Shown: positions 1,836 through 40,261 of the stretch, piece by piece
Numbering within the stretch: position 1 is the first letter of the stretch
Layout of the letters: each line of letters opens with the position of its first letter
Assembly (NCBI RefSeq): GCF_037042905.1
Contig: NC_087250.1
Span: 12,526,001-12,590,000 of the forward strand
DNA length: 64,000 bases
Source of the DNA: Lytechinus pictus
Lineage: Eukaryota
Direction of reading: 5' to 3'
Translations under genes and position numbers: made by a program
Notes under the pieces: generated by a model
The model's input: only the letters and a program-made list of their open reading frames with translations
What the model was told of the DNA's origin: nothing
Database searches by the model: none

Positions 1836-2123
1836 TGTGCCCTGAAGGTTGGGTGTACGGGAACACAAAATGTTTCCTGTTCGAGAACAGCCTCCAGGAC
1901 ATTCCCTGGACAACTGCTCGTGACACCTGCAACGCCCTGGAAGCAGTCACATTGTGCAACGGGAAGGCAGTGGAGCCATCCCTGCTCGTCATAGAAAGCA
2001 TTGAGGAGTACCATCTTCTGAAGCGCAACGTGACCACTGACTTTGCGTGGGTGAACTGCATCCTCATTGATAAAACTTTTGAATGTTACACGGACAGGGC
2101 AGGGACAACTAGCGACTATCGAA
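1836..2123 (+). CDS. C-type lectin domain gene A, CTLD exon 1 (upstream exons not found in the window)
   Basis: Acceptor tatag|, donor |gtaag, 288 nt, phase 1-1. Encodes CPEGWVYGNTKCFLF...WTTARDTC...SLLVIESIEEY...AWVNC...YR, the long-form CTLD N-half. Confidence 0.9.
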
Positions 2124-3933
2124 GTAAGACGAATTTTGCTACTTATTTTGTACCCCCCCCCCCCTGTAAGATAGAGCCTCTAACCTTATTTTTCACTTCG
2201 CCTAATCAAACTGGTATGTGGTCATCCTTCCCAATTTGGTTTTCCCCTTTTCTTATCTGTTTTTGGTGTTCCTCTTATCATGTCTGTTGTTTTGCCTCGT
2301 CTTCCATTGCTTGTCCTTCATTCTCCTTTCTTCTTTTCTTCTATCTGTGGTAATATGTCGAATGTGCAACGTAAGTCTTGGCGGAGGCCTCTTAGTGACT
2401 GAACCTCCATTCCTTTCCCTTTTCTGTCCTATAAGTAGCATGTACCAAATTAATTATATACTTTCAAGGGCGATCCACATTTACAAGCATTGCCTTTAGT
2501 GGACCCCCCCCCCTTTTCGTTTTCCATATGCGTTATATCATACTGCTTATTTCATATCAATCCTTAAAATTATATCTGATTTATATAACTTTGTAGTATG
2601 TTTGAATGAAAATGAAATAAAAAATTGAATGTAATTGGAACGAAGCTCCATATTTATTCAATGCTTCGTATCAAGCAAATATTTGCGGTAGCAGTCGCTC
2701 TACCACACAACACTTCGGGTAAGTCTGTTGAACTATTGACTAAACAACTCTGGACAAGAGACGAGAAAGTAAGAGAAGAGAGAAGATTTAGTATAATATT
2801 GATTATGAATATGGCCTTATTATATATCAGGGGAAAGGTAATGATGTGGGGATTATCAATTGGTCATTGAAAAATAACGAAAATAATACATTAGATGGAA
2901 ATCGCCAATTAAAATGCGCTAAAATGCCTCTCCGAAATATGCCTCGCATCGGTCTCTGAATTGACTCGAATTTGATGACGTGCATGAGTGTACGATAGAC
3001 GTGATTGGCTCTCCCACGTCAAGCTCCACTTGCATGCAAAACCTGTTGCGAGGGTACGTTTTCTCCACACTGTCACTGAATACTTCGATCACGAAATGAA
3101 AGAAAACCCACAAGTTTATCTAGATTTGGATTTTTAAATAGATGATTTTGAAGATGAAGAGAATGATGATGGATTTTATAGCTCTAGAACAACAAAGTGA
3201 CGTGGATGGAGGTAAATTAAGGGAATTACGCCGGTGATGACGAGTCGGACAATTCAACTTGCATGCCGATTTGCTACCAACTCATTCAGCTGCTAGCTGC
3301 ACCGCGGGCCAAACCCATGAAAATGAATTCCAGCATGACCACATCCAGACAGAGTCTCTTCCCTCTATAAACAAGATAATGAGAAGGAAAATAATTATAT
3401 AACTGTACTTACAAACAAGTGAATATATCCGAACCTGAAGGCAAATCAACTCAACGAATAGCAGCAGACGATATGCACCGCGCGAAGATGATCGTTCGTG
3501 TGGCTGGGATAGATTGTCACTCGTTCTGTTAGATAAAATTTCTATCTCATTATTTTGACAAAATTACGAAACTCGGGGAATTATTTTTCTATATAAAAAT
3601 ATAGTAACACCTGGTACTATTTTTTAAATTACGATAAAACCTTTTTTGAAGCAAAAAAATGAGGTAAATTAAAATTAGATATAAAAGATCATCCGCCTAG
3701 CTCGCACGCGATCGATTGTAAACAAACCATCACCAACACAGGGCTAAAGCTCGCCTTGCTGATTGTTTACAATTGCATGCGAGCGAGGCGGATGATCAGA
3801 ATTTTGCTCTTTAAACTTTACTATATTTATTTAGATATAAATAGTCCGGAGCATACCTTTTCAGCATTTTGCTTTGTGAATTTTACACTTTCTATTGAGA
3901 TAGAAATATCTCCAGCCTGGACCATATATTTAA

Positions 3934-4780: not shown

Positions 4781-4790
4781 TAGCTTTATT

Positions 4791-5220
4791 TTCAATTGGT
4801 CTAATACCAATTCGTCTAATTATCAACTCGTCTACTATCATTTGGTCTACCATCAGTTCGTCCACTACCTACGTGGTCTACGTGTCATTTCGTCCACTCA
4901 CCATTTCGTGTAATAACCATGTGGTCCAATAGCCATTTAGTCCACATGCCATTTGGTCGAATTGTATACAGTGTTAATTGGGAGAAATGAATGTAAAGAA
5001 AATGGGTACTAGACCAACTGGTTATGAGACGAAATTGTCCTGAAAGAACTGGTAATGATACAGAGTAATTATTGGACGACATTTTTATTGGATTAAATGG
5101 TTGCCAGACGAAATGTCGATGGACTGAATGGCATTAGATGAAATGAAGGTAGACCATGTGATGAGTGGACGAGTTGGCATTAGACGACTTAGCAATTTAC
5201 TCTTTGAAACACCGGCCATG
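4791..5220. mobile_element. Foldback-type dispersed repeat (other copies at ~21356-21738 and ~53453-53867)
   Basis: Arms built of ttcgtcta/tggtcta motifs facing tagacgaa/tagacca motifs. The same family occurs three times in the window. Confidence 0.75.
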
Positions 5221-7259: not shown

Positions 7260-7989
7260 TATATATATACAAAAACGTTTCATTATTTTCTTTATTTATA
7301 TCATCATTATGAAGAAATAAGTGAGAAGCAAAAACAAATATGGCAATCGCTTTTTTCAGATAGGCAAAATATTAGTATGTTATTGACATCGTAATTACGA
7401 TCATTGCTTCTGTTTTAATGTTATTGGTCTATTTTTTATTCCTTAATTTTACTGCTCTGTAATATGACACAAGAAAAAAACACATGGAATGAGTAAGAAA
7501 TTTTTAAAATTTCAATGTGTAGTTCATGTTGAGCAGGAAAATAAATTATTTTGGATCCGACGATAATTTGTGGAGGCGGTTGCCCATTGTTAATTTCTTT
7601 TTTAAACTTCACCTTCCGTATGGCAAGCCGTTTTAACATTTAAGCCTAATTTAAGCCTAAGAATTACCATTGCTTAACTACACAAAACCATTTTTTTTAT
7701 ATCAAGAATTCGATTTCTTGATATCAAGAAATGAATTCTTGATATCGAGAATTCGATTACTTGATATCAAGAATTCATTTCTTGATATCTAAAAATAGAA
7801 TTATTGATATCATGAAATGAATTCTTGATATCTCTTGATTTTGAACGCAAGACTATTGCAAGAATTGTTTGGATATCGAGCACAAAGTATTGCACAAATG
7901 TTAAATTTATGTCAAGCTCAAAAGTTGTGCAGAATTGAAATTGATACTTGATTTCCAGCGCACAAGTAATGCAGAAATTTATTCTGATT

Positions 7990-10897
7990 TCTAACTCAAA
8001 ACCAGTGCACGATTATACTGTGATTCGATTTCGAACTCAAAACTTGTGCACGATTACATTGTGATTCGATTTCGAACTCAAAACTTGTGCACGATTACAT
8101 TGTGATTCGATTTCGAACTCAAAACCTGTGCACGATTACATTGTGATTCGATTTCGAACTCAAAACCTGTGCACGATTACATTGTGATTTGATTTCGAAC
8201 TCAAAACTTGTGCACGATTACATTGTGATTCGATTTCGAACTCAAAACCTGTGCACGATTACACTGTTATTCGATTTCGAACTCAAAATTTGTGCACGAT
8301 TACATTGTGTTTCGATTTCGAACTCAAAACTTGTGCACGATTACATTGTGATTTGATTTCGAACTCAAAACTTGTGCACGATTACATTGTGATTCGATTT
8401 CGAACTCAAAACTTGCGCACGATTACATTGTGATTCGATTTCGAACTCAAAACTTGTGCACGATTACATTGTGATTTGATTTCGAACTCAAAACTTGTGC
8501 ACGATTACACTGTGATTCGATTTCGAACTCAAAACTTGTGCACAATTACATTGTGATTCGATTTCGAACTCAAAACTTGTGCACGATTACATTGTGATTT
8601 GATTTCGAACTCAAAACTTGTGCACGATTACAATGTGATTCGATTTCGAACTCAAAACTTGTGCACGATTACATTGTGATTTGATTTCGAACTCAAAACT
8701 TGTGCACGATTACACTGTGATTCGATTTCGAACTCAAAACTTGTGCACGATTACATTGTGATTTGATTTCGAACTCAAAACTTGTGCACGATTACATTGT
8801 GATTCGATTTCGAACTCAAAACTTGTGCACGATTACATTGTGATTCGATTTCGAACTCAAAACCTGTGCACGATTACATTGTGATTCAATTTCGAACTCA
8901 AAACTTGTGCACGATTACATTGTGATTTGATTTCGAACTCAAAACTTGTGCACGATTACACTGTGATTCGATTTCGAACTCATAACTTGTGCACGATTAC
9001 ATTTTGATTCGATTTCGAACGATTACATTGTGATTTGATTTCGAACTCAAAACTTGTGCACGATTACATTTTGATTCGATTTCGAACTCAAAACTTGTGC
9101 ACGATTACATTGTGATTCGATTTCGAACGATTACATTGTGATTTGATTTCGAACTCAAAACTTGTGCACGATTACACTGTGATTCGATTTCGAACTCAAA
9201 ACTTGTGCACGATTACATTGTGATTCGATTTCGAACTCAAAACTTGTGCACGATTACATTGTGATTCAATTTCGAACTCAAAACTTGTGCACGATTACAT
9301 TGTGATTTGATTTCGAACTCAAAACTTGTGCACGATTACACTGTGATTCGATTTCGAACTCAAAACTTGTGCACGATTACATTGTGATTCGATTTCGAAC
9401 TCAAAACTTGTGCACGATTACATTGTGATTCGATTTCGAACTCAAAACTTGTGCACGATTACACTGTGATTCGATTTCGAACTCAAAACTTGTGCACGAT
9501 TACATTGTGATTCGATTTCGAACTCAAAACTTGTGCACGATTACATTGTGATTCAATTTCGAACTCAAAACTTGTGCACGATTACATTGTGATTTGATTT
9601 CGAACTCAAAACTTGTGCACGATTACACTGTGATTCGATTTCGAACTCAAAACTTGTGCACGATTACATTGTGATTCGATTTCGAACTCAAAACTTGTGC
9701 ACGATTACATTGTGATTCGATTTCGAACTCAAAACCTGTGCACGATTACATTGTGATTCGATTTCGAACGATTACATTGTGATTTGATTTCGAACTCAAA
9801 ACTTGTGCACGATTACACTGTGATTCGATTTCGAACTCAAAACTTGTGCACGATTACATTGTGATTCGATTTCGAACTCAAAACTTGTGCACGATTACAT
9901 TGTGATTCAATTTCGAACTCAAAACTTGTGCACGATTACATTGTGATTTGATTTCGAACTCAAAACTTGTGCACGATTACACTGTGATTCGATTTCGAAC
10001 TCATAACTTGTGCACGATTACATTTTGATTCGATTTCGAACTCAAAACTTGTGCACGATTACATTGTGATTCGATTTCGAACTCAAAACCTGTGCACGAT
10101 TACATTGTGATTCGATTTCGAACTCAAAACTTGTGCACGATTACATTGTGATTTGATTTCGAACTCAAAACCTGTGCACGATTACATTGTGATTCGATTT
10201 CGAACTCAAAACTTGTGCACGATTACATTGTGATTTGATTTCGAACTCAAAACTTGTGCACGATTGCATTGTGATTCGATTTCGAACTCAAAACTTGTGC
10301 ACGATTACATTGTGATTCGATTTCGAACTCAAAACCTGTGCACGATTACAATGTGATTCGATTTCGAACTCAAAACTTGTGCACGATTACATTGTGATTT
10401 GATTTCGAACTCAAAACTTGTGCACGATTACACTGTGATTCGATTTCGAACTCAAAACTTGTGCACGATTACATTGTGATTCGATTTCGAACTCAAAACT
10501 TGTGCACGATTACATTGTGATTTGATTTCGAACTCAAAACCTGTGCACGATTACACTGTTATTCGATTTCGAACTCAAAACTTGTGCACGATTACATTGT
10601 GATTCGATTTCGAACTCAAAACTTGTGCACGATTACATTGTGATTCGATTTCGAACTCAAAACTTGTGCACGATTACATTGTGATTCGATTTCGAACTCA
10701 AAACCTGTGCACGATTACATTGTGATTCGATTTCGAACTCAAAACTTGTGCACGATTACACTGTGATTCGATTTCGAACTCAAAACTTGTGCACGATTAC
10801 ATTGTGATTTGATTTCGAACTCAAAACCTGTGCACGATTACATTGTGATTCGATTTCGAACTCAAAACTTGTGCACGATTACATTGTGATTCGATTT
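7990..10897. repeat. Homogeneous 41-bp satellite, ~70 copies
   Basis: Unit AACTTGTGCACGATTACATTGTGATTCGATTTCGAACTCAA (8041 to 8082 period), head-to-tail with no spacers. Degenerate units at ~7840-7990, and a separate TTCTTGATATCAAGAA repeat at 7695-7835. Confidence 0.98.
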
Positions 10898-12842: not shown

Positions 12843-14384
12843 TCATTTTCTTCCCTCCACAATATTATACCTATTGACGGCATCACACATTAATCTAGTA
12901 ATTAGTTGGAATAGTGAAATGTACTCTTGGAAGAATAACCAAAACTCAAAGAAAATTATCACGATGATGACATGATAATTTGATAATACCCAATATTTAT
13001 AACGCGCTTTATCCAAATGGCCCAAAGCGCTTACAATTTCAAATTCATACAAACGAACAAAACATAGTTTATAATCTAATTTTGCACAATGCTCTACCAT
13101 AAAAAAAATATATATAAGAGCAGGATATACTAATAAGAAGTCTGTGTATTTCATTAACAGTAGGCCTATTGTTCATTGCTTAACGAACTACAAAATTTAA
13201 ATAAGTTTATACGTCGTGTCCAAAATTTTGAAAATAAAAAGGTATACAATACTAAAAAGTAATCATACTATCTATAACTAGGGAAATTGAAAAAAATAAT
13301 CGGCTATGAATAAATATGATGGATCAGTACAATTCGTTTGAAGAAAATAATGTTAGGATGCAGATCGAATCTGAAAAAAAAAATCAGAAACAAATTTCTT
13401 GATTTAATTATTTGCTACAATGTTTAGGTATGAAACATTGTAGTTGAAGGGATACTCCGGGCTTAAATTATTTATATCTAAATCGAAAGAGTAATATTCA
13501 TGGTGCACAACGTTGAAAATTTCATCAAAATCTGATAACAAATAATGAAGTAATTGAAATTTGAAGTTTATCAATATAATTATTGTGAAAACAGTTATAT
13601 GCACGTCGTCATGAATATTCATTAGGTTGGCTGATGATGTCACAATGACATCCCACTTTCTCTTTTCTTCTGTTATTACATGAAATCAAAATAATTTCAT
13701 TCCTCATACAGTAAGGTGTGAATGATGTGTCTCCATTTTGATAAAATAAGATGCAGCGATTAATTTCTAATGCATTAAATCAGTTAATCCAATTTTTTCT
13801 TATAGTTCTTAAGGGAAAAAATAATAACCCTAATTTCATAATAAAGTACAAAAGAACAAGTGGGGATATGACATTATCAGTTTGCTCATTGAATGTTCAT
13901 GAAGACATGCCTAGAACTGTTTCACCGGAATAATTCAAATCTGTAAAATGCCATTACTTTGTTATTCTTTGTCCAATTTTGATCAAATTTCCACGGTTTT
14001 TTTTGTCCGACTTTGTCACTATTTATATTCATCATCAGTCTCACCTCTGAAACAGACCAACGACCGATCAAAGGTATTACCTTATATAAATCGAATCACA
14101 TACAATCGGTCGGTTTGCATTTGGTTCCATTTTGTGTGACTGATTCGTATCCAGGATGCTAGCTAGTCTGCACGCACAGACCCTGATTTAAACTTTGATC
14201 AACAAGTGTGTCTCCACGCAAAGACTAGCACATACAAAACTTGCTGTTTCAATTCAGGGCCGAGGGCCTTCCGTACACAAGACATGAGTAGGCTACAATT
14301 CAGACCCTTTACTCGAGTAAGGGTTTGCACAGCAGACTAGACGCTAGCGATGGTGTGTTCGTACGGTTAAGAGATTCCGGACTT

Positions 14385-17300
14385 TTCGCATGTACTACGG
14401 GGACACTCTCTACAACGCACCAATTCCTTTGAAAATGCAAGTCAAATCACAATGGAAAGCTGAGATGGCTTTTGTCGAAAGTTGGTGGACCGACCGGGAC
14501 GCGAAATTATTTTTCCCACCAAGTTCTGGACCGACATATGAATATTCATGACTTGCGTCTTCGGATTGAGAGTACGCATGCGCGTGGACTTGGCCTCGAC
14601 CAGTGCCGATCGTAAGCATTCACGTTGCTCAGAATGAATTAGCATCGTCAAATTACCGGTACCCTTACATAGTTACATAGGCCTTATAGGCTTAGATCTA
14701 TATATACATCCAATTCATAAACACTTATCAAACTAGCTGCCATTAATGGCAAGACATGTGCTAGGGTAGGGCTAGCTTAGGCTATAGCGCATTAACTTTA
14801 CCTCAAATCTGGACCTGGCTAATGCCTAATACTAATATGAATAGCCGACTAACGCCATGGTTAACTTCGAACTTGTTAATTCCGAACTTAACGTTTGATT
14901 AGGTTTGGACCAATATTAGCTTATTTACCATGGTTTAATATGTCTAGTCCGTATACAGAACCAGTCCTAGATCTAAAAAAATATCTTAGTTCTAGTCTAG
15001 TCTCTAGATCTAGACTCTGATCTACGCGCTATCAGCATGGAACCACTAGTGTACCAAAGGGGGGGGGGGGGGCAGACTACCCCCCTGACGAGTCACAACT
15101 GACTCCCAGTGGACGTGCCCCCCCCCCCTTGAGAAGCCAAATTAATAATTTGTAATGTCAAAATGCAACGAAAAAAGACGTATGTCCCCTCTTTTGAACG
15201 TGAAGATCTTTGTTTTTTTCTTGTTAAATTTTTTTTCAGCTACGAAATCCTTAATTTTGGGTGAAGACGGGGATCAAGATCACTGACGTTAATTTGTGCC
15301 TGACGTTAGAATACGTTCCATGCACGCACTGGTGTACCTACGATTTTCAAAAAGGGGGGCAAATTTTTTAGAGGATATTTCGTCCGCGAAAAAATGTGAC
15401 AAGCCCCCCCACCCCCCCCCCAAAAAAAAAAAGGGTCTTCACCCCAAATTATGGATTTCTTAGCTGAAAAAAAAATTGACAAGCAAAAAAAAAAAAAAGA
15501 TCTTCACGTTAAAAAAAGGGGACATACGTCTTTTTCATTGCATTTTTACATTACAAATTATTAATTTGGCTTCTCAAAGGGGGCACGTCCCCTGAATCAG
15601 TTGTGACTCGTCAGAGGGACAGTCTTCCCCCCCCCCCCCCCCCCTTGGTACACTAGTGGTTCCATGCTAATACAGGCATACAGCGTAGATCAGAGTCTAG
15701 ATATAGAGACTAGACTAGAACTAAGATAATTTTTTTTTAGATCTAGGACTGGTTTTGTATACGGACTAGACATATTAAACCATGGCAAATAAGCTAATAT
15801 TTGTCTAAACCTAATTAAACGTGAAGTTCGGAATTAACCAGTTCGAAGTTAACCATGGCATTAGTCGGCTATTCAGTGTTGTAGTCAAGACTCAAACCTC
15901 CAAGGCCAAGGCTTTAATACCCAAGGCCAAGGCTTCAATACCAAAGGCCAAGGCCAAGGCATGGAAACCCAAGGCCATGGCCTGAAAACCTCAAGGCCAA
16001 GGCATTTCAAACTTACGATATACAGAACAATGAACTAACAATACTTAGGCGGCAGACATCACACATGGTAAAATGTAAGTGAGCGAGGGGACTGAGCGAG
16101 AAAAAAATTAACCTTTGTACATTTAAAACAAAAATAATTTCATGATAGAGACATATTAAAATAATGATATAGTTACCTGTGTACACATAATCCATAATTT
16201 TTCTATAGGCGATTTACATTGCAATAATTATTATTACCACGGTCATCATGATCCTGGCATTCTCAACGTATGTTTTTCTCCACTCCCTGGGACAGGGGCA
16301 GCAGAAAATTATTATGGGGGGGGGGGTCAACACCAAAAAGGCACCCATTTATCAAAATGAGTTTTTTTGTGCAAACAGATACATGTATTTTCAAAATGAG
16401 ATTATGAACTGCGTTAAGTAACTTGTGTGTTTTATAGAAATTAAGTTGAGCAAAGGCTTTCTAAAGTGATTTTTAATTATAAGATAGATATTTTGCTTTA
16501 GGTTTTACTTCTCAGCGAGAAAGCATAGCGAGCAAGCGGTTTTGAAAAAAAAATCAATTCTGATGTTGTAAAACTTGATTTATGGTCAATTATGGGGCTA
16601 ATCATTGTTGAAATTTCCTTGCGCGATGTTGCCAGCGCGAATCACCAGCTCAAACTTCTTGACATGTTGTGTAATAAGACATGGAAATTATTTTATTCTG
16701 AGCTGGTTTTGTAATCATGAAAAAGATGTGTATCTAACTAAAAAATAACTTTGCGCTCGCTAATTCTTTTTATATACTGACCAGTAAAGGAAGCAGTTAA
16801 TTAAGCAGTTAATTACTGCATTTTAAATAAGATACATAACTCACCAATAAAAAATAATGCGAGCGCAAAGCGCGAGCTCAAAAATTTATGATATTCCAAC
16901 CTGAAAACTTGACATTCTAAGCATTTTTTTGTGAACGGGAAGAGAACGAGTACAATAATTGATGCGAGTGCAGGAAGCGAGCCAAATATTTGTGATATTT
17001 CAACCATAAAGCAACATTCTATACATTTTTGTAACCATTAGCAGTACTGTACTAAACAATAATTGATGCAAGCACGATTCAAAATCTGTGATTTTCGAAC
17101 CTAAAATGTATTATGTTTTATTATAAAAGAAGGTATTTCTTTTTTAAAAGGGCATATTTCATTTGGAAAAACAAATCCTACAGGGATTTTTTTTTTTTTT
17201 TTTTGGGGGGGGGGGCAAGAGAGCACATAGCGCAAGCTAAATTTTTAAATGCTTAACCTGAAAATGAGTCATTTTTAGGACTCTTGTCAGTTTTCATATT

Positions 17301-19024
17301 TTTTTCTGCTTACAACCACTTTTATTAAACAGTTAATTAATCATTAATTATTAATACTTATTGATAATAATAATTATTAATTATTAAATTATTTTTTGTT
17401 AATTATTATTTCTTGAAACCATATTGACACAAAAACAAATACGTTGTTTATTTCCTTGAAACTGTAGAGAAATGAGATTCAATGTTGAACGATATATGAT
17501 TAAAAAGAAGTAAACATTTTTTCCCCTTTGTTTTGTCAATCTGACCCAAAACAAATATAAAATTTAGAAGAGAGATAGAGAGAAGAAGAAGTCCCACCAC
17601 CAAGAATAAACTTAGACAAGGGGGGAAAGGGAAAGGAAAAGATGGAGTAAATGTGATATTATTTTTTAAACAATCTATTGCAAAATTAGCTTTTCTTATA
17701 GAAAGAGGGGGGCAAATTTTGTTCACTCGCTCGCTTCAATCGCTTTCTTCTTTTTTTTTGACAGAAATTTTGCTCTATATATGCCATGCTTGGCCCCTCA
17801 AAGTTTCTGGCTCATCATGCCATTGACATAACCCATTTGGATATGACAAAATTGGAGACTGTGTTCAAGTTTACCAAATCTTTTCAGAATATCATTAAGA
17901 CCTAAAACATTCTTGTTGGCCAAAGAAAATAATACAAAGAAAATCCTAATGGAATAGAAATCAACCTTGTTATCGTTCTTTAGAGTTAGCTATGTTTAAA
18001 GTATGAAAATTGTTGTCAAAATTGCAGTCAGATGTAAAAAAATATTTTTGTCATCAAAGCACTATTATCTTTATCATGACCATTATTATTTACTGTCATT
18101 ATCATCATATGATTACAACACATTACCAATACATAATGCTATTTTTCATAACTGATGTATTCTTTGTTTGAATTTATTGATAATGGTGACAATTACAATT
18201 GATGACACTGCTAGTACACTTACTACTGCTGCTGCTACTGTTACTGGTGATTGGTTGTATTGACCATTAGTGTTATTAAATATATATATAAAAAAACAAT
18301 TGAAACATTTATAATTACTTATTTAAAACAAATGAAAGTACAAAATACAAAATGCCTTGAAAATGCCTTAAAATTTCAAGGCTCAAAATCCTCAAGGCCA
18401 AGGCCCTCTCAAGGCCAAGGCTTTGAAAAAGTAGCTAGGCATTAAGGCGCCTTAAGGCCAAGGCCGAGCATCAAGGCACTACAACACTGATTAGTACTAG
18501 GCATTAATTAGACAGGTCCAGATTTGAGGTAAAGTTAATGCGCTAGCCCTACCCTAGCACATGTCTTGCCATTAATGGCAGCTAGTTTATTAAGTGTTTA
18601 AGAATTGGATATACCATATATAGATCTAAGCCTATAAGACCTATGTAACTATGTAAGGGTACCGGTAATTTGACGATGCTAATTCATTCTGAGCAACGTG
18701 AATGCGTACGATCGGCACTGGTCGAGGCCAAGTCCACGCGCATGCGTACTCTCAATCCGAAGACGCAAGTCATGAATATTCATATGTTGGTCCAGAACTC
18801 GGTGGGAAAAATAATTTCGCGACCGGCGGGACAGCATCGGAACCTCTTGACCCTGGACAAGGACATATTTGAAATTGTTCGTCCGGTGCAAATCTTCGGA
18901 TGATCTGCCGGCCCAAGCAGTTCACCAACTTTCGACAAAAGCCTCTCAGCTTTCCATTGTGATTTTAATTGGATTTTCAAAGAAATCGATGCGTTGTAGA
19001 GTTTTCCAGTAGTAAATGCGAAAG
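14385..19024. repeat. Large inverted duplication (arm 14385-~15230 vs 15495-15873 plus 18490-19024)
   Basis: For example 14560-14720 is the reverse complement of 18600-18770, and 14840-15060 of 15645-15873. The ORF-track peptides MTMLIHSEQRE... appear on opposite strands. Confidence 0.92.
15874..18489. mobile_element. 2.6-kb non-autonomous TIR element inserted in the right arm of the inverted duplication
   Basis: TIR CAGTGTTGTAGT ... ACTACAACACTG with CAAGGC(CAAGGC) subterminal repeats at both ends. The flanks rejoin into the sequence of the other arm. No transposase ORF. Confidence 0.85.
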
Positions 19025-19901: not shown

Positions 19902-20741
19902 AGGACAATAGTATGGAAGATTAAAAGTGCCACCCAGATGTTCATATAATCATCTCGTCATGTCTACATCTTACAAAAGGGAAAAGGATCAGATGACGAG
20001 ATCTCGGATCTCGCCATGTCTACATCCCGTGGGAGAGATGATCAGATGACAAGATTTTGGATCTCGTCATGTCTACATCTTGTGGGAGAGATGATCAGGT
20101 GGCAAGATCTTGTATCTCGTCATGTCTACATCTTGTGGGAGAGATGATCAGGTGGCAAGATCTTGTATCTCGTCATGTCTACATCTTGTGGGAGAGATGA
20201 TCAGGTGGCAAGATCTTGTATCTCGTCATGTCTACATCTTGTGGGAGAGATGATCAGGTGGCAAGATCTTGTATCTCGTCATGTCTACATCTTGTGGGAG
20301 AGATGATCAGGTGGCAAGATCTTGTATCTCGTCATGTCTACATCTTGTGGGAGAGATGATCAGGTGGCAAGATCTTGTATCTCGTCATGTCTACATCTTG
20401 TGGGAGAGATGATCAGGTGGCAAGATCTTGTATCTCGTCATGTCTACATCTTGTGGGAGAGATGATCAGGTGGCAAGATCTTGTATCTCGTCATGTCTAC
20501 ATCTTGTGGGAGAGATGATCAGGTGGCAAGATCTTGTATCTCGTCATGTCTACATCTTGTGGGAGAGATGATCAGGTGGCAAGATCTTGTATCTCGTCAT
20601 GTCTACATCTTGTGGGAGAGATGATCAGATGACAAGATCTTGGATCTGAAATCTTACCATCTGATCATCTCTCTCACAGACAAGACAATATGGTTATCTG
20701 AACACCTGGGTGGAACTTTCAAACTTCCATACACTAGTCCT
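19902..20741. mobile_element. TIR-bounded element filled by a 53-bp tandem array (~13 units, 19954-20645)
   Basis: About 50-bp imperfect TIRs at 19902-19953 and 20690-20741, right end CC|TTAA. Unit GATCTTGTATCTCGTCATGTCTACATCTTGTGGGAGAGATGATCAGGTGGCAA. Confidence 0.85.
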
Positions 20742-22933
20742 TAACTACTTCAATATGTCGAGGTCCCTTACCCACAATGCAACATTCCAAGTAGTCAAGT
20801 ATTTTCAAATAGGCCAACATGAATAAAAACAAACTAATTCACTGCTCAATTTTTCATACAGCAATAATTATGTTACCAGGCATTCTTGCAAGTACTTTTC
20901 TCTTCAAGACAATGTAGTTTCCGAATACATGAACATTATAAAGTGTTGGCTGATTCATTCTTAGTTATTAATAGCTGTTTCAAAAGCTATATATCATGAC
21001 TAGCTATTTATAAGTGATCAGTTTTCTCTCCTTTTAAATTGTGGAACCTGAACTTTTAAAGAAGGGGGGGAGCTTAAATTACTTAAATAAGTTTTGTTGA
21101 TCCGATGAACCAATTACGGGTCGATAGGATATTTGATGTTATCTTTTTTGGCCCACTTTAACATTTCCATGGTGTTTAAATTTTAAACAATACTAGTGCA
21201 TGTTATCAGATTGACTAGGCCTAGACGGATCACGGCCCAATGCAGGATTTTTGTCCAGGGACGATATGAAAATAAATAAATGAATTTTTCAAAAAGGCAA
21301 AACATGACAATCAAGCCGAAATAGGCCTACAAGCAGGGGTGGCTCAGCGCCCGTATATTTCCAATTCGTCTAATGCCAATTCGTCCAATTGTCAACTCGT
21401 CTACTCTCATTTGGTCTACCATAAGTTCGTCCACTCACCATTTCGTCTAATAACCAGTTGGTCCTATAGCCATTTAGTACATATACCATTTGGTCTAATT
21501 GGACTATTTGTTAATTGTGCAAAGTGAAATAAAATGAAATGGATATTAGACCAACTGGTTATGAGACGAAATGGTCATAGAGGAAATGGTTGTTAGACGA
21601 AGTGATGATTGGACCAAACAGTTATTGGACGTAATGGTTGTCAGACGAAATGTTAACGGACAGAATGGCATTAGACTAAATGAAGGGAGACCATGTGGTG
21701 AGTGGACGAGTTGGCAGGAGAAGAACTGGCAATTTACCCATAGGCCTACAAGCAGGGTGAGGGGGGGGGGCAGCTAAGCGACCAAGCTGAATCACTGGTA
21801 GTGTGTTTCTTTTGTAAAAATTAAATGATCTCAGTCACATTTTGTGTCAATTCTGCAAAAATGAGCAAAATGTTTGGTAGGAAAACTCCCCCTCTCCTGC
21901 CATGCTCTAACCAATGAAATGGAGGAGGGCGGATTCTTATCAACAACAAAAACAAAAACGAAGAAAAGAAACGAAAACCTCCAAATATGGTTTTGTTTGC
22001 AGGAGTCAATAGAAAATGTATTATATCTAATTATATGCATTATACCACCAGTAATTATGATTATTTGACATTATCATTTCGATAGAAGCAGAGGATGAGA
22101 AAAAGTGGCTCTTTGTCTCATTTGACATTGAGAGCCATTTGCAGGACATTCAAGAAAGTAAAAAAGGGGAATTTGGAGAGCTGCTAAAAAGGCAGTTAAG
22201 TCAGCCATGGAGGCAGCTATACCTGCTATTATTACAGCAGTGTAGGATGTGTGCCTCTCTGCTGTAAATGAGGTGGTGAACCCACACCTCCTTCGTCTAC
22301 AATACAGGGACGATGACCTGGAGCAGCAACTGAGGAGGGACAATCTTCGTTTCTGCGGTATTAAGGAATGTGAAGAGGGAGAGGAGGGAGGGTGAAGAAG
22401 AAGAGAGTGAGGAGATGCTCCACAACAAAGTGTTAGCAGTGGCAGAGAAAGCTGGAGTAAAGCTGAAAGCAGAGGACCTGTCTTCATGTCACCGCATCGG
22501 CAAGAAGTCTAGAGGAAAGGAGCGACAGATTTTGGCGCGCTTTACTCTAAGAGGAAGAGAGATGCGTTGTATACTGGTCGATTCAAGTTGAAAGGCATTG
22601 AGAGCATGAAGGGCGTCTACATCAATGAAGACATCGCTCCAATGAGACTTGCTGTCATCCATGCGGCAAAGTTAAGTCCCCATGTGAAGAGAGAATCAAC
22701 TAGCAACGGCAACATTGTATGCAAGCTCACTAATGATGAATACAAAACGATTAAATCCCCTGATGACCTCTTTGATGTTGGTCTTGACAGCATTAACTAC
22801 AAGAACTTCAAGCTCCATTTCATGGAACTATAATCCTAATTGGCTTGTGTTTTTTACAAATAGGTCTGTATCACTAATATAAATTGAAAACAAAGTCTAT
22901 TATGAATTATTACCAAATGATTTTGACAACGCT

Positions 22934-25900
22934 TTGAATTTTGATCTGTCTACATCTCTTAAACTGTCCTATATCAACATACGATCATTGGGACAAAATA
23001 TTGAAAATCTCAAGCTGTTATATGAAGATTGCATTAATACCAGATTTAATATAATTGGTTTGTCAGAAGTTTGGAGTGTCCCTGATACTTCACTTCTAAA
23101 TTTGGAAGGTTATACCCTTGAAGTAGATTGTCGACAAAGTGAGTTTAGAGGAGGAGGAGCTGGAGCTTATATCAAGTCCAATCTGAAGTATACTCGTTTG
23201 AATTATGATATTGTCCATTCCAAATCTCTTTGGTTTCAAGTTAGTTTTACTAATGAACTTAAAATACTTATTGGTGTGATATACAGAAAACCTGGTACAA
23301 ATGTAAAGGAAATTCAAAAATAGCCTGCTTTCTATTTTAGAGCAGAATAAGATTGATAAACGTAAATGTGTAATATTAGGATATTTCAACCTGAATACGT
23401 TAAGTTTAGAAGATGCAGTGGAGGACTTCGTTTCATCTCTACAGTGTGTGGGATTAGAACAATTAATAAATTCACCAACAAGGGTAACCAAAGATTCTTT
23501 TACCATATTAGATCATATTCATTCAAATTTTGGTATGCTTGAAACACACTAAGGTATCATACAATCTGACATTTCGGATCATTTTGCAGTTTTTGTAGTT
23601 TTCAGGAATATTAAAAACAAAATATGTGAAAATAAGAGGAAAATTACTTTAGATGCTACAAAAATTATAATGCCGATCAGCTTAAAAATGATCTTTCCCT
23701 TTGTGACTGGGAAGATGTATTTAATAGCAGTGACGTAAATGTTGCATATTCTACTTATAAGAGATCTTTTTCTTGTATTTGCAATAAGCATGCTCCGTTT
23801 GTGACTAAACAGATTGGAAAAAAGAAAGATATCTAAAAGAAACCATGGTTGACAAAAGGAATTTTGAAATCTATACGTACCAAGCAAAAATTATATGCAA
23901 AACTTCTTAAGTCAAATTACCGTGACGACATTTTGAAAGAGTTCAAGAAATATAGAAATAAGCTAACTAAAATATTAAAGAATGCAAAAAGAAAATATTA
24001 CAGTAAGTTGTTATATGACAACCGATGTTACACAGGCAAAACATGGGATATAATTAATGAATTATTGGTTGGTAAGAAAAAAGCATCAAGGAGTACTGAG
24101 GTGGAAAAGCTTATCAAAAAGGTAAACGAAAATAATACTATTCTTACATCTGCACATGATATTGCTGATGAATTCAATAACTTCTTCGTAAATATTGGAC
24201 CTAACTTGGCAGATTCATTGCCCATTGAGAATATGTCACATTCACATTACCTTGGTGCACAAGCTAGCAATTGTTTATTTTGGAAACCTGTGAAGTAGGT
24301 GCCATGAGCCTAATTACATCAGGAGGGCTAAAGATATTCGTTCGACCCAACCCATTCGAATTTTTTTCAATTTGATATTGCTGATTGACAAAAGTGTATG
24401 AATATGATTCAAAATCTAACACTGATTCTAGAAATGGTAACTACTGAACTTCCTTTGCCCAAATTGGGACGATATATCAATGATTTGGAACTATTTTTTG
24501 ACTGGCGGAAGAATTGGGGCTATTTTACTGTTTCAGGTGATGAATTTGATCCCATCATAGTTATCTTCATAAATGGCGATTTATTTTTAAAATGAGCTGG
24601 CTACGATACCCTTCTCTGGTCAGACATGGAATGTCAGATATATATCCTATCCAAAGGTAGTAAACATTCGACCCTCTAATTTCACATTTATTTTTTATGA
24701 ATTTTTCTTAAGTGCCATTTTAACACACAAGTCTATGGGGAATGTTTTACGCGCGTGACACCTGTAAGTAATACAGGCAAATTCCCTATAGTGGATGGAA
24801 TACCTGCCCAAACTCCTCAGTAGTATACAATTTCTAACTGATATCAATATGTTTAGTCATCAAGGGTGCAAAAAAATGGATTTAATGGCTTAGCAAGGCT
24901 ATATATCAGGTAAAGTTAGTAGGTATGTGCATGTAAGCCTAGGAATGCATATAGACTGGTCAATGAGAGTCTAGGCCTCTTTATGTTCTGATTCATCATT
25001 GGTTTGTGCTAGTGTATGATTACCTACTTAATGTTAGAAAGGCCTTTACAAATTGCTCATGTTAAAATTGTTCTTTTGGATTGGGGTAGAGAGGAGATAG
25101 AACTTTGTGAACTTTACTGAAGAGAACTAGAGTGGTACCTTCAAGAAGGTATTTAGAAAAAGGCAAAGAGTATAAGGTAAGGTATCTAATAGTGCTCAAC
25201 TAAGGGGGGAGGGGGGGGGGTAGCTGTGTGATCCAATCTTAGTCTAACCCCCCCCCCCTCTTTATAAGCCATGTCATCTATAAAACTATCTTTCTTTTTT
25301 GTCTCTCTCTCTTTCTATCTATTTATGTATCTCTTCCTTCTTACATCTGATAGGCAATAGCCCTAGGAAGATTTTGATATAATAGGTCAAATGCAAATGT
25401 ACTAAAGTAATATGTTCTCATTCTTTTATTGTTCCTCAATCAATCTCATGTATATCTGGTAATTATGTTTGGGGCAGTTCTGGTATCCTGATATCTACAG
25501 ACAATTTACATACACCTTTATATATTGTCATTGCATTCACTGTTGGGCTACATGCAGGTAGGATATGTAGACGTCCATATAGTGAATATAACATATATGA
25601 GTAACACATAAAAATTGGTCATTGCACAGAAAATAGGCATTTTCAATGCATTTCTTTGTGCTAGTGTGAGTGTACAGATATAAAAGAATAGCAAAGTAGC
25701 TATTTAAAAAAATAAAATTCATAGGTCATATAATATAGGTGCCATGAGCCTAATTACATCAGGAGGGCTAAAGATATTCGTTCGACCCAACCCATTCGAA
25801 TTTTTTCAATTTGATATTGCTGATTGACAAAAGTGTATGAATATGATTCAAAATCTAACACTGATTCTAGAAATGGTAACTACTGAACTTCCTTTGCCCA

Positions 25901-27721
25901 AATTGGGAAGATATATCAATGATTTGGAACTATTTTTTGACTGGCGGAAGAATTGGGGCTATTTTACTGTTTCAGGTGATGAATTTGATCCCATCATAGT
26001 TATCTTCATAAATGGCGATTTATTTTTAAAATGAGCTGGCTACGATACCCTTCTCTGGTCAGACATGGAATGTCAGATATATATCCTATCCAAAGGTAGT
26101 AAACATTCGACCCTCTAATTTCACATTTATTTTTTATGAATTTTTCTTAAGTGCCATTTTAACACACAAGTCTATGGGGAATGTTTTACGCGCGTGACAC
26201 CAGTATTCAATCATCTTATATCTCTTGATGTAAAGAAAGCATGTGGTCATGATTATTTACCTGCAAGGTTGTTAAGAGAGGGAGCAGTTTATATATCAGG
26301 TGTTCTTACTTATATCTTCAATCTGTCTTTTGGGTGTGGGAGAGTACCTGATGACATGAAAATAGCTAAGATTACACCTATCTATAAAAAAGGACCAGAA
26401 GATGATCCAGGAAACTACCGACCAATCTCTGTTTTGCCAATTCTGGGTAAGGTTTTAGAGAAAGTAACCAATAAACGATTAATAGAATTTTTAGAATCCA
26501 ATGATGCATTATTCAATCATCAGTATGGTTTTCGTAAAAGATACAGTACAAAATTGTCGCTTATCAATTTGTCGAACACTATTCTTAAATCCTTAGACCA
26601 GGGTAAAACTACCCTTGGAATATTCATTTATTTTAAAAAAGCTTTTGACACAATCGATCACAATATTTTGATACAGAAGCTTTTTCACTATGGTGTGAGA
26701 GGGCTTCCTTTAAACTGGTTTAAAGACTATCTTGCTTGCAGATATCAGTTTGTTCAACATGGTGAAATATTCAAAGAAAATGAAAATAAGATGCGGTGTC
26801 CCTCAAGGCTCAGTATTAGGGCCTACATTATTTTTATTATACATAAATGATCTTCCATCCGTTTCAATTTTTTTCTATTTTAGATTATTTGCTGACGGCT
26901 CTAATCTTTTTCACACCTTTCCAATTGGAAAGGATGAGATCGATAACAATGAGATAAATACTAATATAAATAAAGTGCAAAAGTGGTGTGTTGCAAATAA
27001 GCTTACTATCAATTCTCTGAAAACAAAATTTATGTTAATTAGCAGTAGAAAAGGGAATGTAAAGTTGCGTAGTAATATTACACTAGATGGAGAGGAATTG
27101 GAAGAAGTTGACGAAGCAACTTTTGTAGGTATATCAATTGATAAGCATCTGTCTGTCTGTCATGGAAAGGTCATATACGGACGATTAACTCAAATATACG
27201 TAAGAAAATAGGAATTTTGTTTCGGTTACGATATTTTGTACCCAAATTTACTTTGATATTGTTATACAAAGCTTTTACAGAGCCACATCTCACTTATGGC
27301 ATTGAGGTGTGGGGGAGTACATACAAGAGCAGCCTGAATTGTATATCTTTCCCAAAAAATGGCAGTGCGAGCAATTACCTTTAGTCACTGGCAAGCTCAT
27401 TCTCGCCCTTTTTTCAATGATTTAAAGATTCTTAATGTTTATGATTTGCATAATCTATCAGTATGTACCTTCATGTATGATCTGCGTAATAATAACCTAC
27501 CTCACTCCTTAGCAGATTATTGTAACCTAATTGAGCACAATTATCCTACTAGACAGAAGAAAGGCCAACAAGTAAATCTTCCAAAACTAAAAACAACTCA
27601 AGGCCAATTTTCACTTTCTTTTCTAGGTAGCAATTTTTGGAATATAGTACCAGTCGAAATCAAATTGAAGAAATCAAGAAAAAGTTTTAGGAATTCTCTA
27701 AAAAGTTATTTGTCTTCATAA
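22934..27721 (+). pseudogene. LINE ORF2 (endonuclease-reverse transcriptase), disrupted
   Basis: In-frame stops (e.g. at ~23321), several frameshifts, the catalytic FADD motif reads FADG, and a 1.9-kb insertion at 24298-26201. Confidence 0.92.
24298..26201. mobile_element. Composite or LTR-like non-autonomous element: direct repeats 24298-24762 and 25738-26201 around a 975-bp core
   Basis: The repeats differ at only 2 positions that I could see. Each is bounded by imperfect TIRs GGTGCCATGAGCCTAA / TTACGCGCGTGACACC. AGTA is duplicated at 24294-24297 and 26202-26205. Confidence 0.9.
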
Positions 27722-28821: not shown

Positions 28822-29188
28822 CTATGATAGGGTGAGAGAGAGAGTTAAAGAAATTAATGCAATCATATGAATATATATATATATATATTAATTTATTCAT
28901 TGATTTTTAAAGGAATACCGTTCCCCTGCCTTTCTATCTTCACCTTCAATTCGGGCCACTGACACCCCCTATGGCCCGATGTATTATTTGCGGATCCAGA
29001 TTTGTAGGCAATTACGTTTGGTTCGAAGGAACTTTCAAGAAATATATTTGTATATGTCCCTTCTAATTGAAAAAAACAAACATTTATATTTTTTTCTCCC
29101 TGGTTTGTAAAATGTTTTGGCCTCAGCACCTTCTTATCCAGCGTAGAGGGCGCGCGTGCCTCTCGTCTGATTACTTTCAACAACTTAC

Positions 29189-29482
29189 CTCGATAGGGAC
29201 TGGTCGTCTCAGAGGCATCGGTGTAGCAGTACCAGTATCCGTTGACAGAGTGGCAGTTAATCCAGGCATAATCGAGAGTTACGTGGGGCTTCAAAAGATT
29301 GTATTCTTCCACACTTTCGATGAAAAGCAAAGAGGGTTCAACCGCTTGTCCAGTCACCAAGGTGACGGGAGACAAAATGTTGCAGGCATCGCGAGCACAT
29401 AACCAATCATAGTCTTCACAGTGATTGTTGTACAGAATTAGGAAACACTTGGTCTGCCCGTATACCCAACCCTCTGGACATA
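29189..29482 (-). CDS. Gene B, CTLD exon 1
   Basis: 294 nt, phase 1-1, donor GTAAG. (V)CPEGWVYGQTKCFLILYNNHCEDYDWLCARDACNILSPVTLVTGQAVEPSLLFIESVEEY...AWINC...YR, paralogous to 1836-2123. Confidence 0.92.
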
Positions 29483-30194
29483 CTTGATGATAAATAAAAG
29501 AAAATAGATTGTTAAATTTAACAGGCTTGTAATATTATCCGTATACACAGTAAAAAAATACAACGCTGTTTACTATATGAACCTTACAGTAATTGTTTAA
29601 ACAGTTTAAACAAGTATTTAAATCTTAAGCAACAAAGTTTAATTTTCAATATCTAATCTTCAATGAATTAAACATGATTGTTTAAACGGTTAAACAAATA
29701 GTAAACAGCGTTGTATAAAACCTTAAACAGCGTTTTTACTGTGTACTGTTTTATCTTACCCCCCCCCCACATTCCCTTGGAGATAACATAACAAATGCCA
29801 ATATACCACAGCTATATATTGTTCCTATATAGATACTGCCACTTTTAATTCGCAAACCTCGGGGACGCGGCATTAGGGTCCCGTAACAAAAAAGTTAACG
29901 ATCAATCGTTCACTCGATTTTCACGATTGATTGTACATTATATTCAATGGAATCAATCGTAGAAAACCGTTCTACAATCATTGCTAAGTTTTGTCGACGA
30001 GCATACGTGCTCTTATTCCGACGACGCAAGTCATGAATATTCATATAGGCTTCCAGAACTGCGGTGGGAAAAATATTTTCGCCCCCGGCGCACTCCAATG
30101 CGCATGCAATTTTAATAGCAATAAGCCCATTCTGTGTTTGGAACAGTGATTATTTTTTTATTTAAACTAGTGCACACCTAGTTACCAATAATGC

Positions 30195-38450: not shown

Positions 38451-40261
38451 CAGTGGCTTAGCTACGGGGGGGGGGGGGGCCTGGGGGGCACGTGCCCTCC
38501 ACCCCCCCCCCCCCCCAAGGTGCCCCCTGAAAAAAAATTGGCGGAGCAAAATAAGGAGAAAGAAGAAAAGAAAAAAAGGAGAAAGACGGATGGAAAAAAG
38601 AAGAAAATAAGAGGAGGAAGACAAGTGAATAAAATAATGTAAGGGGAAGACTTGCAAAAAAAACAAAATCTTTCATGTTACTATAAGAATTTTCGCTTGC
38701 GCTTCGCGCCTGAATTGCCTGTTCGATGAGATTCATATCTTGTTTTGAAGTCAATATACAAAACATATTTCAGCTCGGACATCGAGCTTTTATTACTTTT
38801 TTTTTTTCATTTACAAATTTAAGTGCTCTATAAAATGTCCGTTTTATAGTCTACATATTAACATTTTAAGCTCACGCTGCGTGGTCGCATTATTTGATTT
38901 GCCAAGTCCCTATTGTCTTCGTGTATTCCATAAAGTTCTCAAAATATCAATTTTCAGATGTGATAGACAAACATAGGCCTATAAGTTAGCGCTGCGCGCT
39001 CGCATTTTGATTGGTGAGTACTCTAGATATCAATTCTATAACCAAACAAGCTCCCCTTTTCATTTTAGTTAATAGGAATTCAAAAAAAAATTATTTTATT
39101 ATTTGTTAATCTAATATGCGAAATGACAGCGTGAAAGTTTTTGTTTTTTAAGGCTTGAAAGCTGGAAATTTTAAGCATTTTGTAATTATGAATTCGCATT
39201 ACACAATGGTTAGTACATTTTTAACAATTAATGCGAGCGCAAATCGCGGGCTGAATTTTTTTAATGAAATGTAATGAAAAGGGGAGCTTGTTTGGTTATA
39301 GAATTGATATCTAGAGTACTCACCAATCAAAATGCGAGCGCGCAGCGCTAACTTATAGGCCTATGTTTGTCTATCACATCTGAAAATTGATATTTTGAGA
39401 ACTTTATGGAATACACGAAGACAATAGGGACTTGGCAAATCAAATAATGCGACCACGCAGCGTGAGCTTAAAATGTTAATATGTAGACTATAAAACGGAC
39501 ATTTTATAGAGCACTTAAATTTTATTTTGAATTCCTATTAACTAAATTGGGTCTTTTCGAATGGAATATCGACAAGCTTAGGCATTTTAGGAATAATAGG
39601 AAGATAATCATCATTTTTATGACAATATGTCCTTAGAATATACCGGTCCTCATTTTTCAGTTGTTTAGTTACATACGTATCTCATTTATGATTACAAAAA
39701 GTGCTTAGAATGACCATTTTTTTCAGGTCGGAATGTCAACAACTTTCAGCTCGCGCTTCGCGTTTACATTATTGAAATATGTACCGTCTTCGTGGGTAAC
39801 TGTAAACAGTCCTTAACAGGTCCCTTTTCGATCATGCTAGAACACTTATTTAAAAATTCTGCTCGTGCTTGGCATTCTCAGTAATTACATAGTTACATAC
39901 GCATCTTGTTCAGGATCACAAACAGTGGCCAGAATGTTAAATTTTCAGGACAAAATACATATATGAAAGTTCAACAACAACAAAATTCGCTCGCGCTTCG
40001 CGCTCGCACTTTTTATATAGGGCCTATGAAATTATTTCATATTTATGTTATAAAGCTAAGAAGTGACTGATCGGGGATAATAAAGGTGAAGATAATTTCG
40101 GGCCCCATCCCCTATTGGCGAAAGTCGGATCCACCTTTGATATTATAAGGTCTTTGCTTGTGACACACACACACACACACAGAAAAAATGGTGCCCCCCC
40201 CCCCTGAAAAAGCAAGGACCCCCAGGTGCCCCCCAGGAAAAGCAGTCTAGCTACGCCACTG
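38451..40261. mobile_element. 1.8-kb hAT-type non-autonomous element nested in a Kolobok-like remnant (~38424-40710)
   Basis: CAGTGGCTTAGCTA ... TAGCTACGCCACTG. TSD AAACAAGT/AAAAAAGT (7/8). Internal GCTCGCGCTTCGCG repeats. Confidence 0.85.

What the first reader, a model, noticed from the sequence alone, without database searches (positions are those of the whole stretch)
24298..26201. Young composite-transposon-like element: two direct TIR modules moving a 975-bp core as one unit
Seen: the 465/464-bp direct repeats differ by only one T in a run and one C/A substitution. Each repeat carries its own imperfect 16-bp TIR (GGTGCCATGAGCCTAA vs GGTGTCACGCGCGTAA, 12/16). AGTA is duplicated only at the outer ends, while the inner junctions are TGTA and TATA, so all four junction tetramers end in TA. 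There is no TG...CA terminus, no TGG primer-binding site and no polypurine tract in either orientation. A hairpin CCTGTA-AGTAA-TACAGG sits at the first inner junction, and the core has no convincing ORF. The insertion splits a LINE ORF2 at FWKPV/VFNHL, so the empty site can be reconstructed. Inference: either a bacterial-style composite DNA transposon (MITE-cargo-MITE) or a TRIM/LARD-like retroelement with non-canonical termini. GGTG...CACC ends with a 4-bp TSD do not match a superfamily I can name with confidence.
Basis: partly seen in the sequence, partly recalled or inferred. Interest (0 to 1): 0.75.

Follow-up and report, generated by a model that had tools for sequence, protein, structure and literature searches.

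The report
Gene-less KolobokP transposon copy
This is one recent, gene-less copy of KolobokP, a jumping-DNA family with paired end repeats described in 2022 from a sea urchin, so the odd two-module structure is real but already known.

Summary
The structure is real: 465- and 464-bp direct repeats with two differences, each with a 12/16 terminal inverted repeat and GG..CC ends, around a 975-bp non-coding core, 1904 bp in all, with AGTA at both outer ends. It is a non-autonomous KolobokP element (Kojima & Bao 2022, PMC9587614). Their Table S1 lists KolobokP-N2_LyPi (Lytechinus pictus) as 1904 bp, repeats 465/464, 4-bp target duplication, 16-bp TIR. By eye, the minus-strand repeat differs from the KolobokP-N1_LyPi repeat at 3 of 464 positions, and the core matches the N1/N2 internal regions end to end. 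It is neither a TRIM nor a chance MITE-cargo-MITE pair. One correction: removing the element and one AGTA leaves the LINE out of frame. Contigs in 2 of 4 runs carry 10 more bases there, so this copy has a 10-bp deletion beside the duplication. Both repeats also share a variant rare in those runs, a hint that they are homogenised. Known family; low interest.

The parts
24298..26201 (-). Whole non-autonomous KolobokP monomer (LTDR-INT-LTDR), 1904 bp; minus strand relative to the published orientation
   Evidence: same four dimensions as KolobokP-N2_LyPi in Table S1; sequence match by eye
25738..26201 (-). Long terminal direct repeat (LTDR), 464 bp, 5' one in the published orientation
   Evidence: 3 differences in 464 against KolobokP-N1_LyPi-LTDR, by eye
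24298..24762 (-). LTDR, 465 bp, 3' one in the published orientation
   Evidence: 99.57% identical to the other repeat; 5 differences against the N1 consensus, by eye
24763..25737 (-). Internal region (INT), 975 bp, non-coding; begins TATA and ends TACA on the minus strand
   Evidence: Collinear with KolobokP-N2_LyPi-I (975 nt by line count) and closer to the second INT unit inside N1_LyPi-I, by eye; longest stop-free frame 72 codons
24298..24313 (.). Outer left terminal inverted repeat (16 bp, GG end)
   Evidence: 12 of 16 match to 24747-24762
24747..24762 (.). Inner terminal inverted repeat of the left LTDR
25738..25753 (.). Inner terminal inverted repeat of the right LTDR
26186..26201 (.). 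Outer right terminal inverted repeat (CC end)
24294..24297 (+). Left copy of the 4-bp target-site duplication AGTA
   Evidence: uninterrupted contigs hold one AGTA
26202..26205 (+). Right copy of the target-site duplication AGTA
24293..24294 (+). Site of a 10-bp deletion in the host LINE, abutting the left duplication, with 3-nt TGA microhomology
   Evidence: Joint 24293-26202 with 10 letters between in runs X1 and X5, 2 of 4 runs laid (tables 5 and 5c); frame test
22883..24293 (+). Host LINE ORF2, upstream part (endonuclease-like region and linker), broken by frameshifts and stops
   Evidence: Frame map. No Pfam hit for two pieces of it; the endonuclease label is recalled from motifs, not from a call
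26206..27718 (+). Host LINE ORF2, reverse-transcriptase part, broken by frameshifts
   Evidence: Pfam RVT_1; frame map

Best explanation
A young, non-autonomous KolobokP DNA transposon of the Lytechinus KolobokP-N1/N2_LyPi group, inserted as a whole LTDR-INT-LTDR unit into a decayed LINE. Shown here: the anatomy, the sequence match to the published consensus, the 4-bp duplication at the outer ends only, and an uninterrupted version of the site in other samples. [quoted passage not shown] Inferred: a transposase supplied in trans, most likely by a KolobokP-1_LyPi-like copy whose repeat is about 92% identical by eye, bound the two outermost TIRs, moved the 1904-bp unit and left a 4-bp staggered-cut duplication. 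The inner TIRs belong to the family's standing design; they are not relics of two separate insertions at this place. Inferred more weakly: the two repeats are kept alike by recombination or conversion.
For: Table S1: KolobokP-N2_LyPi 1904 bp, LTDR 465/464, TSD 4, TIR 16, 313 LTDR and 156 INT copies; N1_LyPi LTDR 464/465, 400 copies; autonomous 1_LyPi 4984 bp, LTDR 466/467. By-eye comparison of the 464-bp repeat: 3 differences to N1, about 28 to N2, about 35 to 1_LyPi. Core against the second INT unit of N1-I: about 35 small differences plus one deletion of about 25 nt. Definition of the lineage. Contig depth is far higher over both repeats and core than over the flanks in 4 of 4 runs, e.g. X1 31,000-165,000 against 45-650; the tool warns this is no copy number. 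Uninterrupted site in 2 of 4 runs.
Against: All identities to the published consensus are by-eye counts, not computed. This copy has no transposase, and no genome was available to find its partner. The equal length with N2 is partly coincidence: the sequence is N1-like and reaches 975 bp through a deletion of about 25 nt. The published N1 consensus is a 3486-bp form with two INT units, so no listed consensus matches this monomer exactly. No listed contig piece shows the LINE-element junctions of this copy (32 pieces shown, 12,592 not shown). The target site also carries a 10-bp deletion that plain cut-and-paste does not explain.
Confidence: 0.97

Rival explanations
1. Opportunistic composite: two copies of one MITE landed about 1 kb apart in ordinary genomic DNA, and the pair then moved with that DNA as cargo.
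For: Each module has its own TIRs, and the inner junction 4-mers look like old target sites. The paper itself argues that solo repeats can move alone.
Against: The core is a high-copy family sequence with the same ends as the published internal regions. It has high depth in 4 of 4 runs and resembles the autonomous internal region at its start (by eye). The same design is reported in 228 families from 7 phyla.
Confidence: 0.01
2. TRIM/LARD-type non-autonomous LTR retroelement with unusual ends, copied through RNA.
For: Near-identical direct repeats, a 4-bp duplication, a short non-coding interior, and a variant shared by both repeats, which reverse transcription would also produce.
Against: No TG..CA ends; no primer-binding site or purine tract at the core ends. 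The autonomous family with the same repeat is placed among Kolobok DDD/E transposases in the paper's tree, and the paper reports no reverse transcriptase in the sections read. No ribozyme among 8 Rfam matches, all below gathering score.
Confidence: 0.01
3. Assembly artefact: one module duplicated by the assembler.
For: No long reads for this locus were examined, and no listed contig piece spans the element.
Against: The repeats differ at two sites, the duplication lies only at the outer ends, and the structure matches a published multi-copy consensus in all four dimensions.
Confidence: 0.01

Closest known systems
KolobokP-N1_LyPi (non-autonomous, Lytechinus pictus; PMC9587614 Table S1 and Data S1)
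   Same: Repeat 3 differences in 464; core about 96% alike to one INT unit outside a deletion of about 25 nt (by eye); 4-bp TSD.
   Different: The published consensus is 3486 bp, with two abutting INT units and an extra insert, and only 3 INT copies counted. The window copy is a plain 1904-bp monomer.
KolobokP-N2_LyPi (same source)
   Same: Same listed dimensions: 1904 bp, LTDR 465/464, TSD 4, TIR 16; INT starts TATA and ends TACA; collinear throughout.
   Different: About 28 differences in the 465-bp repeat and visibly more in the INT than against N1 (by eye), so it is a sister subfamily.
KolobokP-1_LyPi (autonomous, 4984 bp)
   Same: Repeat about 92% alike; one 16-bp TIR identical, the other 15 of 16; start of the INT similar (by eye).
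   Different: Encodes the transposase (in the paper's tree); the window copy encodes nothing.
Canonical Kolobok (Kol0 group, Kolobok-1_XT)
   Same: RR..YY ends and a 4-bp duplication.
   Different: TTAA-specific target and no long direct repeats; here the target is AGTA.
Bacterial composite transposons (IS-cargo-IS; IS26 pseudo-composites as discussed in PMC9587614)
   Same: Two TIR-bearing modules in direct orientation around an interior; outer ends used for the whole unit.
   Different: In KolobokP the transposase lies in the interior and the modules are non-coding; the design is a stable lineage, not a chance pairing.
TRIM / LARD retroelements
   Same: Short direct repeats, non-coding interior, solo repeats and tandem arrays.
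   Different: They need TG..CA ends, a primer-binding site and a purine tract (PBS/PPT criteria recalled); none found.

Membership tests
Non-autonomous KolobokP | LTDR-INT-LTDR architecture | tested here: met
   465 + 975 + 464 bp
Non-autonomous KolobokP | LTDR length near 450 or 660 bp | tested here: met
   465/464 bp; criterion
Non-autonomous KolobokP | Each LTDR has its own short perfect or imperfect TIR (11-18 bp) | tested here: met
   12 of 16; chance 66 of 100,000; criterion
Non-autonomous KolobokP | 5'-RR..YY-3' termini | tested here: met
   GG..CC on both repeats
Non-autonomous KolobokP | 3-5-bp target-site duplication at the outer ends, without strict sequence | tested here: met
   AGTA twice; uninterrupted contigs hold it once. 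A 10-bp deletion abuts the left copy
Non-autonomous KolobokP | Sequence similarity to a described KolobokP family | tested here: met
   By-eye comparison with Data S1: 3 of 464 differences to N1_LyPi-LTDR; INT collinear with N1/N2_LyPi-I. Not computed
Non-autonomous KolobokP | Solo LTDRs and multimers elsewhere in the genome | tested here: inconclusive
   None in this window; no genome held. Depth is mostly higher over the repeats than over the core, and one listed contig runs 318 nt beyond a repeat end, which fits but does not show it
Non-autonomous KolobokP | An autonomous partner with the same ends in the same genome | not testable with these tools
   No genome. Published partner KolobokP-1_LyPi; unchecked scan notes report coding KolobokP copies in this genome
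Autonomous KolobokP | DDD/E transposase on the direct strand and His-Me finger nuclease on the opposite strand of INT | tested here: not met
   Longest stop-free stretch 72 codons in six frames; not filed as autonomous
Canonical Kolobok (Kol0) | TTAA target-site duplication | tested here: not met
   AGTA
TRIM / LARD | TG..CA repeat ends | tested here: not met
   GG..CC
TRIM / LARD | Primer-binding site and polypurine tract at the ends of the interior (criterion recalled) | tested here: not met
   30 bases at each core end on both strands show neither
LTR retrozyme (recalled family) | Hammerhead ribozyme in each repeat | tested here: not met
   0 of 8 Rfam matches at E up to 1 are ribozymes; all 8 are sub-threshold miRNA models on one G/C-run hairpin in the core

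The most novel reading that the evidence does not exclude
This copy keeps two footprints of the still untested KolobokP mechanism. (1) Both repeats carry the same variant (24625 and 26064), absent from 4 of 4 published LyPi repeat consensus sequences and from at least 99.6% of summed contig depth at 24625 in 4 of 4 runs. One repeat would then have been copied from the other in this lineage, as the multimer or unequal-crossover model predicts. (2) A 10-bp microhomology-bounded deletion abuts an intact target duplication, as expected if the element's own transposase or His-Me nuclease cuts at an integrated end and the break is repaired by end joining. If both hold across many copies, KolobokP ends are recurrent break sites that scar flanking DNA without excision.
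Probability: 0.15. Interest if true: 0.45.

Novelty: already known. Interest (0 to 1): 0.14.

Why it matters
As an element it adds little: the lineage, the architecture and two near-identical Lytechinus families were published in 2022. Its use is as a test case. The proposed role of the His-Me nuclease in keeping the paired repeats still awaited experimental confirmation in a 2026 review passage. Young monomers that sit inside another repeat, like this one, let the pre-insertion site be read, so flank deletions and repeat-to-repeat homogenisation can be counted.

Tried and rejected
No whole genome is held, so copies, solo repeats and the autonomous partner could not be counted. BLASTN of module and core against the 64-kb window found no further copy; the best outside hits were 15-25-nt chance matches, E at least 0.015. 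Rfam: 8 matches, all far below gathering score, no ribozyme. Six short plus-strand motifs found nothing in the 4 supplementary files; the consensus sequences are printed on the opposite strand. Look-up of earlier scan findings by sequence found 0 windows, and by words 0 findings. Run search: no RNA holder listed, and none of 24 listed runs held half of the sampled words (best 0.31), so the laid runs are other individuals or relatives. The junction hairpin is not kept in the family: the published N2 INT end cannot form it, the N1 end pairs 5 of 6 (by eye), and 3 of 4 runs show the N2-type end at 24773 (table 7), so I rejected it as a functional part. 'All four tetramers end in TA' is true, but published KolobokP targets vary widely, TACT and TGTA among them. 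Pfam found nothing for 6 of 8 proteins scanned. No homologue, fold or complex search was run, as the element encodes nothing.

Full report
Observation. The finding is in the sequence as described. Two direct repeats, 24298-24762 (465 bp) and 25738-26201 (464 bp), differ by one T in a run and one C/A change. Each has GG..CC ends and a 16-bp inverted repeat that pairs at 12 positions. AGTA lies at both outer ends; the inner junctions are TGTA and TATA. The element is 1904 bp with a 975-bp core. Its longest stop-free frame is 72 codons, and the core ends show no primer site or purine tract. Chance rates from the window itself were 66 of 100,000 for the TIR match and 648 of 100,000 for the 4-bp duplication. 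No other copy of module or core lies in the window, and no whole genome is held.

Identification. The architecture recalled KolobokP, and two paper searches returned its description. Of PMC9587614 (Kojima & Bao 2022) I read main-text parts 1-5 of 6. Of its supplements I read part 2 of 2 of Table S1 (search hits), parts 74-75 of 106 and passages of file 3, and part 1 of 7 and passages of file 2; file 4 was only searched. [quoted passage not shown] Table S1 lists four families for the sea urchin Lytechinus pictus. KolobokP-N2_LyPi has full length 1904, LTDR 465/464, TSD 4 and TIR 16, with 313 LTDR and 156 INT copies: the window's four numbers.

Sequence match. I compared the minus strand of the window with the printed consensus sequences by eye, in 70-letter lines; these counts are not computed. 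The 464-bp repeat differs from N1_LyPi-LTDR at 3 positions, from N2_LyPi-LTDR at about 28, and from the autonomous 1_LyPi-LTDR at about 35. The core is collinear with both non-autonomous internal regions. It is closest to the second INT unit inside N1_LyPi-I (about 35 small differences and one deletion of about 25 nt) and visibly further from N2_LyPi-I. So the copy is N1-like in sequence and N2-like in layout, and the equal length with N2 is partly coincidence. The published N1 consensus is a 3486-bp two-unit form, so no listed consensus is exactly this monomer. The host is probably a Lytechinus sea urchin; that is inference from this match, and I did not determine the species.

Other samples. 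Of 24 runs listed, none held half of the sampled words, so they are other individuals or relatives. I laid 4 of them, all as contigs. Depth over both repeats and the core is far above the flanks in all four: for X1 about 31,000-165,000 against 45-650, for X9 86-2,700 against 0-30. The tool states that this is no copy number, so I take it only to mean that both parts are repeated. Loose ends at 24773 in 3 of 4 runs match the N2-type INT end by eye, so both subfamilies occur in those samples. No listed piece shows this copy's own junctions, but only 32 pieces were shown and 12,592 were not.

Target site. The element lies in a decayed LINE-type ORF2 (Pfam RVT_1 in 2 of 8 proteins scanned). About five other frame shifts and at least one stop break it. 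Removing the element and one AGTA leaves 2 nt between the Val of FWKPV and the Val of VFNHL, out of frame. Runs X1 and X5 hold a contig that joins 24293 to 26202 with 10 letters between, which reads in frame and contains AGTA once; X6 and X9 show no such joint among the listed rows (15 joints shown, 146 not). The X5 contig differs from the window at 24 of 724 aligned flank letters, so it may be an allele or a close paralogue. AGTA is thus a true duplication, and this copy also lacks 10 bp directly left of it, bounded by a 3-nt TGA microhomology. Whether the deletion came before, with or after the insertion is not shown. A rough, after-the-fact estimate that one of five or six independent frame shifts in about 2.9 kb falls within 3 nt of either duplication is 1-2%, so a link is plausible but rests on one case.

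Mechanism. Shown: whole-unit insertion, with the duplication at the outer ends only. Inferred: a transposase from an autonomous KolobokP-1_LyPi-like copy acted in trans on the outer TIRs; by eye, one TIR is identical to that family's and the other differs at 1 of 16. Two earlier scan notes report coding KolobokP copies in this genome; they are unchecked and serve only as leads. The insertion is young in the sense that the repeats differ by one substitution and one slip. If the repeats are homogenised, that understates its age. A hint of homogenisation: both repeats carry the same base at 24625 and 26064, where 4 of 4 published LyPi repeats and at least 99.6% of summed depth at 24625 in 4 of 4 runs have another. 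The runs are not the source individual, so the variant may simply mark a local subfamily. The paper proposes unequal crossover, possibly induced by the nuclease, and circular intermediates, and reports 1-5-bp flank losses after repeat excision. In the parts I read I saw no account of a deletion beside an intact monomer, but I did not read all of Figures S2-S5. A passage of a 2026 review (PMC13565253, passage only) says the nuclease model awaits experimental confirmation. A search for Kolobok with Lytechinus listed 3 papers, of which I saw only the listing for the two others.

Rivals. A chance MITE-cargo-MITE pair fails because the core is the family's own high-copy interior. A TRIM/LARD or retrozyme fails on ends, primer site, purine tract and ribozyme. 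An assembly artefact is unlikely given the two differences, the outer duplication and the published multi-copy form, though long reads were not examined.

Verdict. Already known: a non-autonomous KolobokP copy of the N1/N2_LyPi group, confidence 0.97, interest 0.14. What is left of interest is the flank deletion and the shared repeat variant, which can be counted genome-wide as a test of the untested KolobokP model (probability 0.15 that they reflect the element's own machinery, interest 0.45 if so).

Noticed in passing
window 24762 joined to 25734 (runs X1, X5; table 5): Contigs in 2 of 4 runs join a repeat end, through what appears to be the 4-nt TATA, straight to a repeat start: abutted TIRs with a TSD-length spacer, as in the circle junction or a repeat-repeat tandem discussed in the paper. 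The shorter sides are only 19 and 24 letters and the tool marks the letters between as not known, so this is weak.
   Followed up: no
PMC9587614 Data S1, KolobokP-N1_LyPi-I: The published N1 internal consensus is two INT units joined at a single TATA, the first carrying an unrelated insert. It looks like an LTDR-(INT)2-LTDR form rather than the common monomer, which would explain 400 LTDR against 3 INT copies in Table S1.
   Followed up: partly
window 25076-25151 (+): A 25-codon stretch in the core with one stop reads like a decayed exon and is followed by GT. I saw no counterpart in the part of the autonomous INT that I read. Probably chance.
   Followed up: no
window 25204-25262: G-run / C-run hairpin inside the core, the source of all 8 weak Rfam matches; similar runs stand in the published N1 and N2 internal regions.
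   Followed up: partly
window 22400-27718: The host LINE looks near full length, with ORF1-like remnants at 22400-22830 and a broken ORF2. The stop at 23834-23836 appears to be read through in contigs of 3 of 4 runs, which have other letters at 23833-23834 (table 3). Clade not tested.
   Followed up: partly
window 38815-39522: Perfect 250-bp inverted repeat around a 208-bp middle, a very young foldback or MITE-like element; no clear target duplication at the aligned ends.
   Followed up: partly
window 14384-19023: Inverted arms (14384-14836 against 18490-19023, 87-91% identical) and a nested inverted pair (14838-15268 against 15435-15875): a possible 4.6-kb TIR element with an insertion.
   Followed up: no
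window 4787-5200, 21353-21738, 53452-53868: Three copies of a roughly 400-bp internally palindromic repeat, 76-82% identical, MITE-like.
   Followed up: no
window 7692-10897 and 19987-20647: Tandem arrays: 41-bp unit in about 70 copies, and 53-bp unit in 12.5 copies at 97% match.
   Followed up: no
window 1763-2353 (+) and 28893-29534 (-): Two related exon-like frames that look like the start of a C-type lectin domain (label recalled from memory); Pfam gave no hit at E 0.01 for either.
   Followed up: partly
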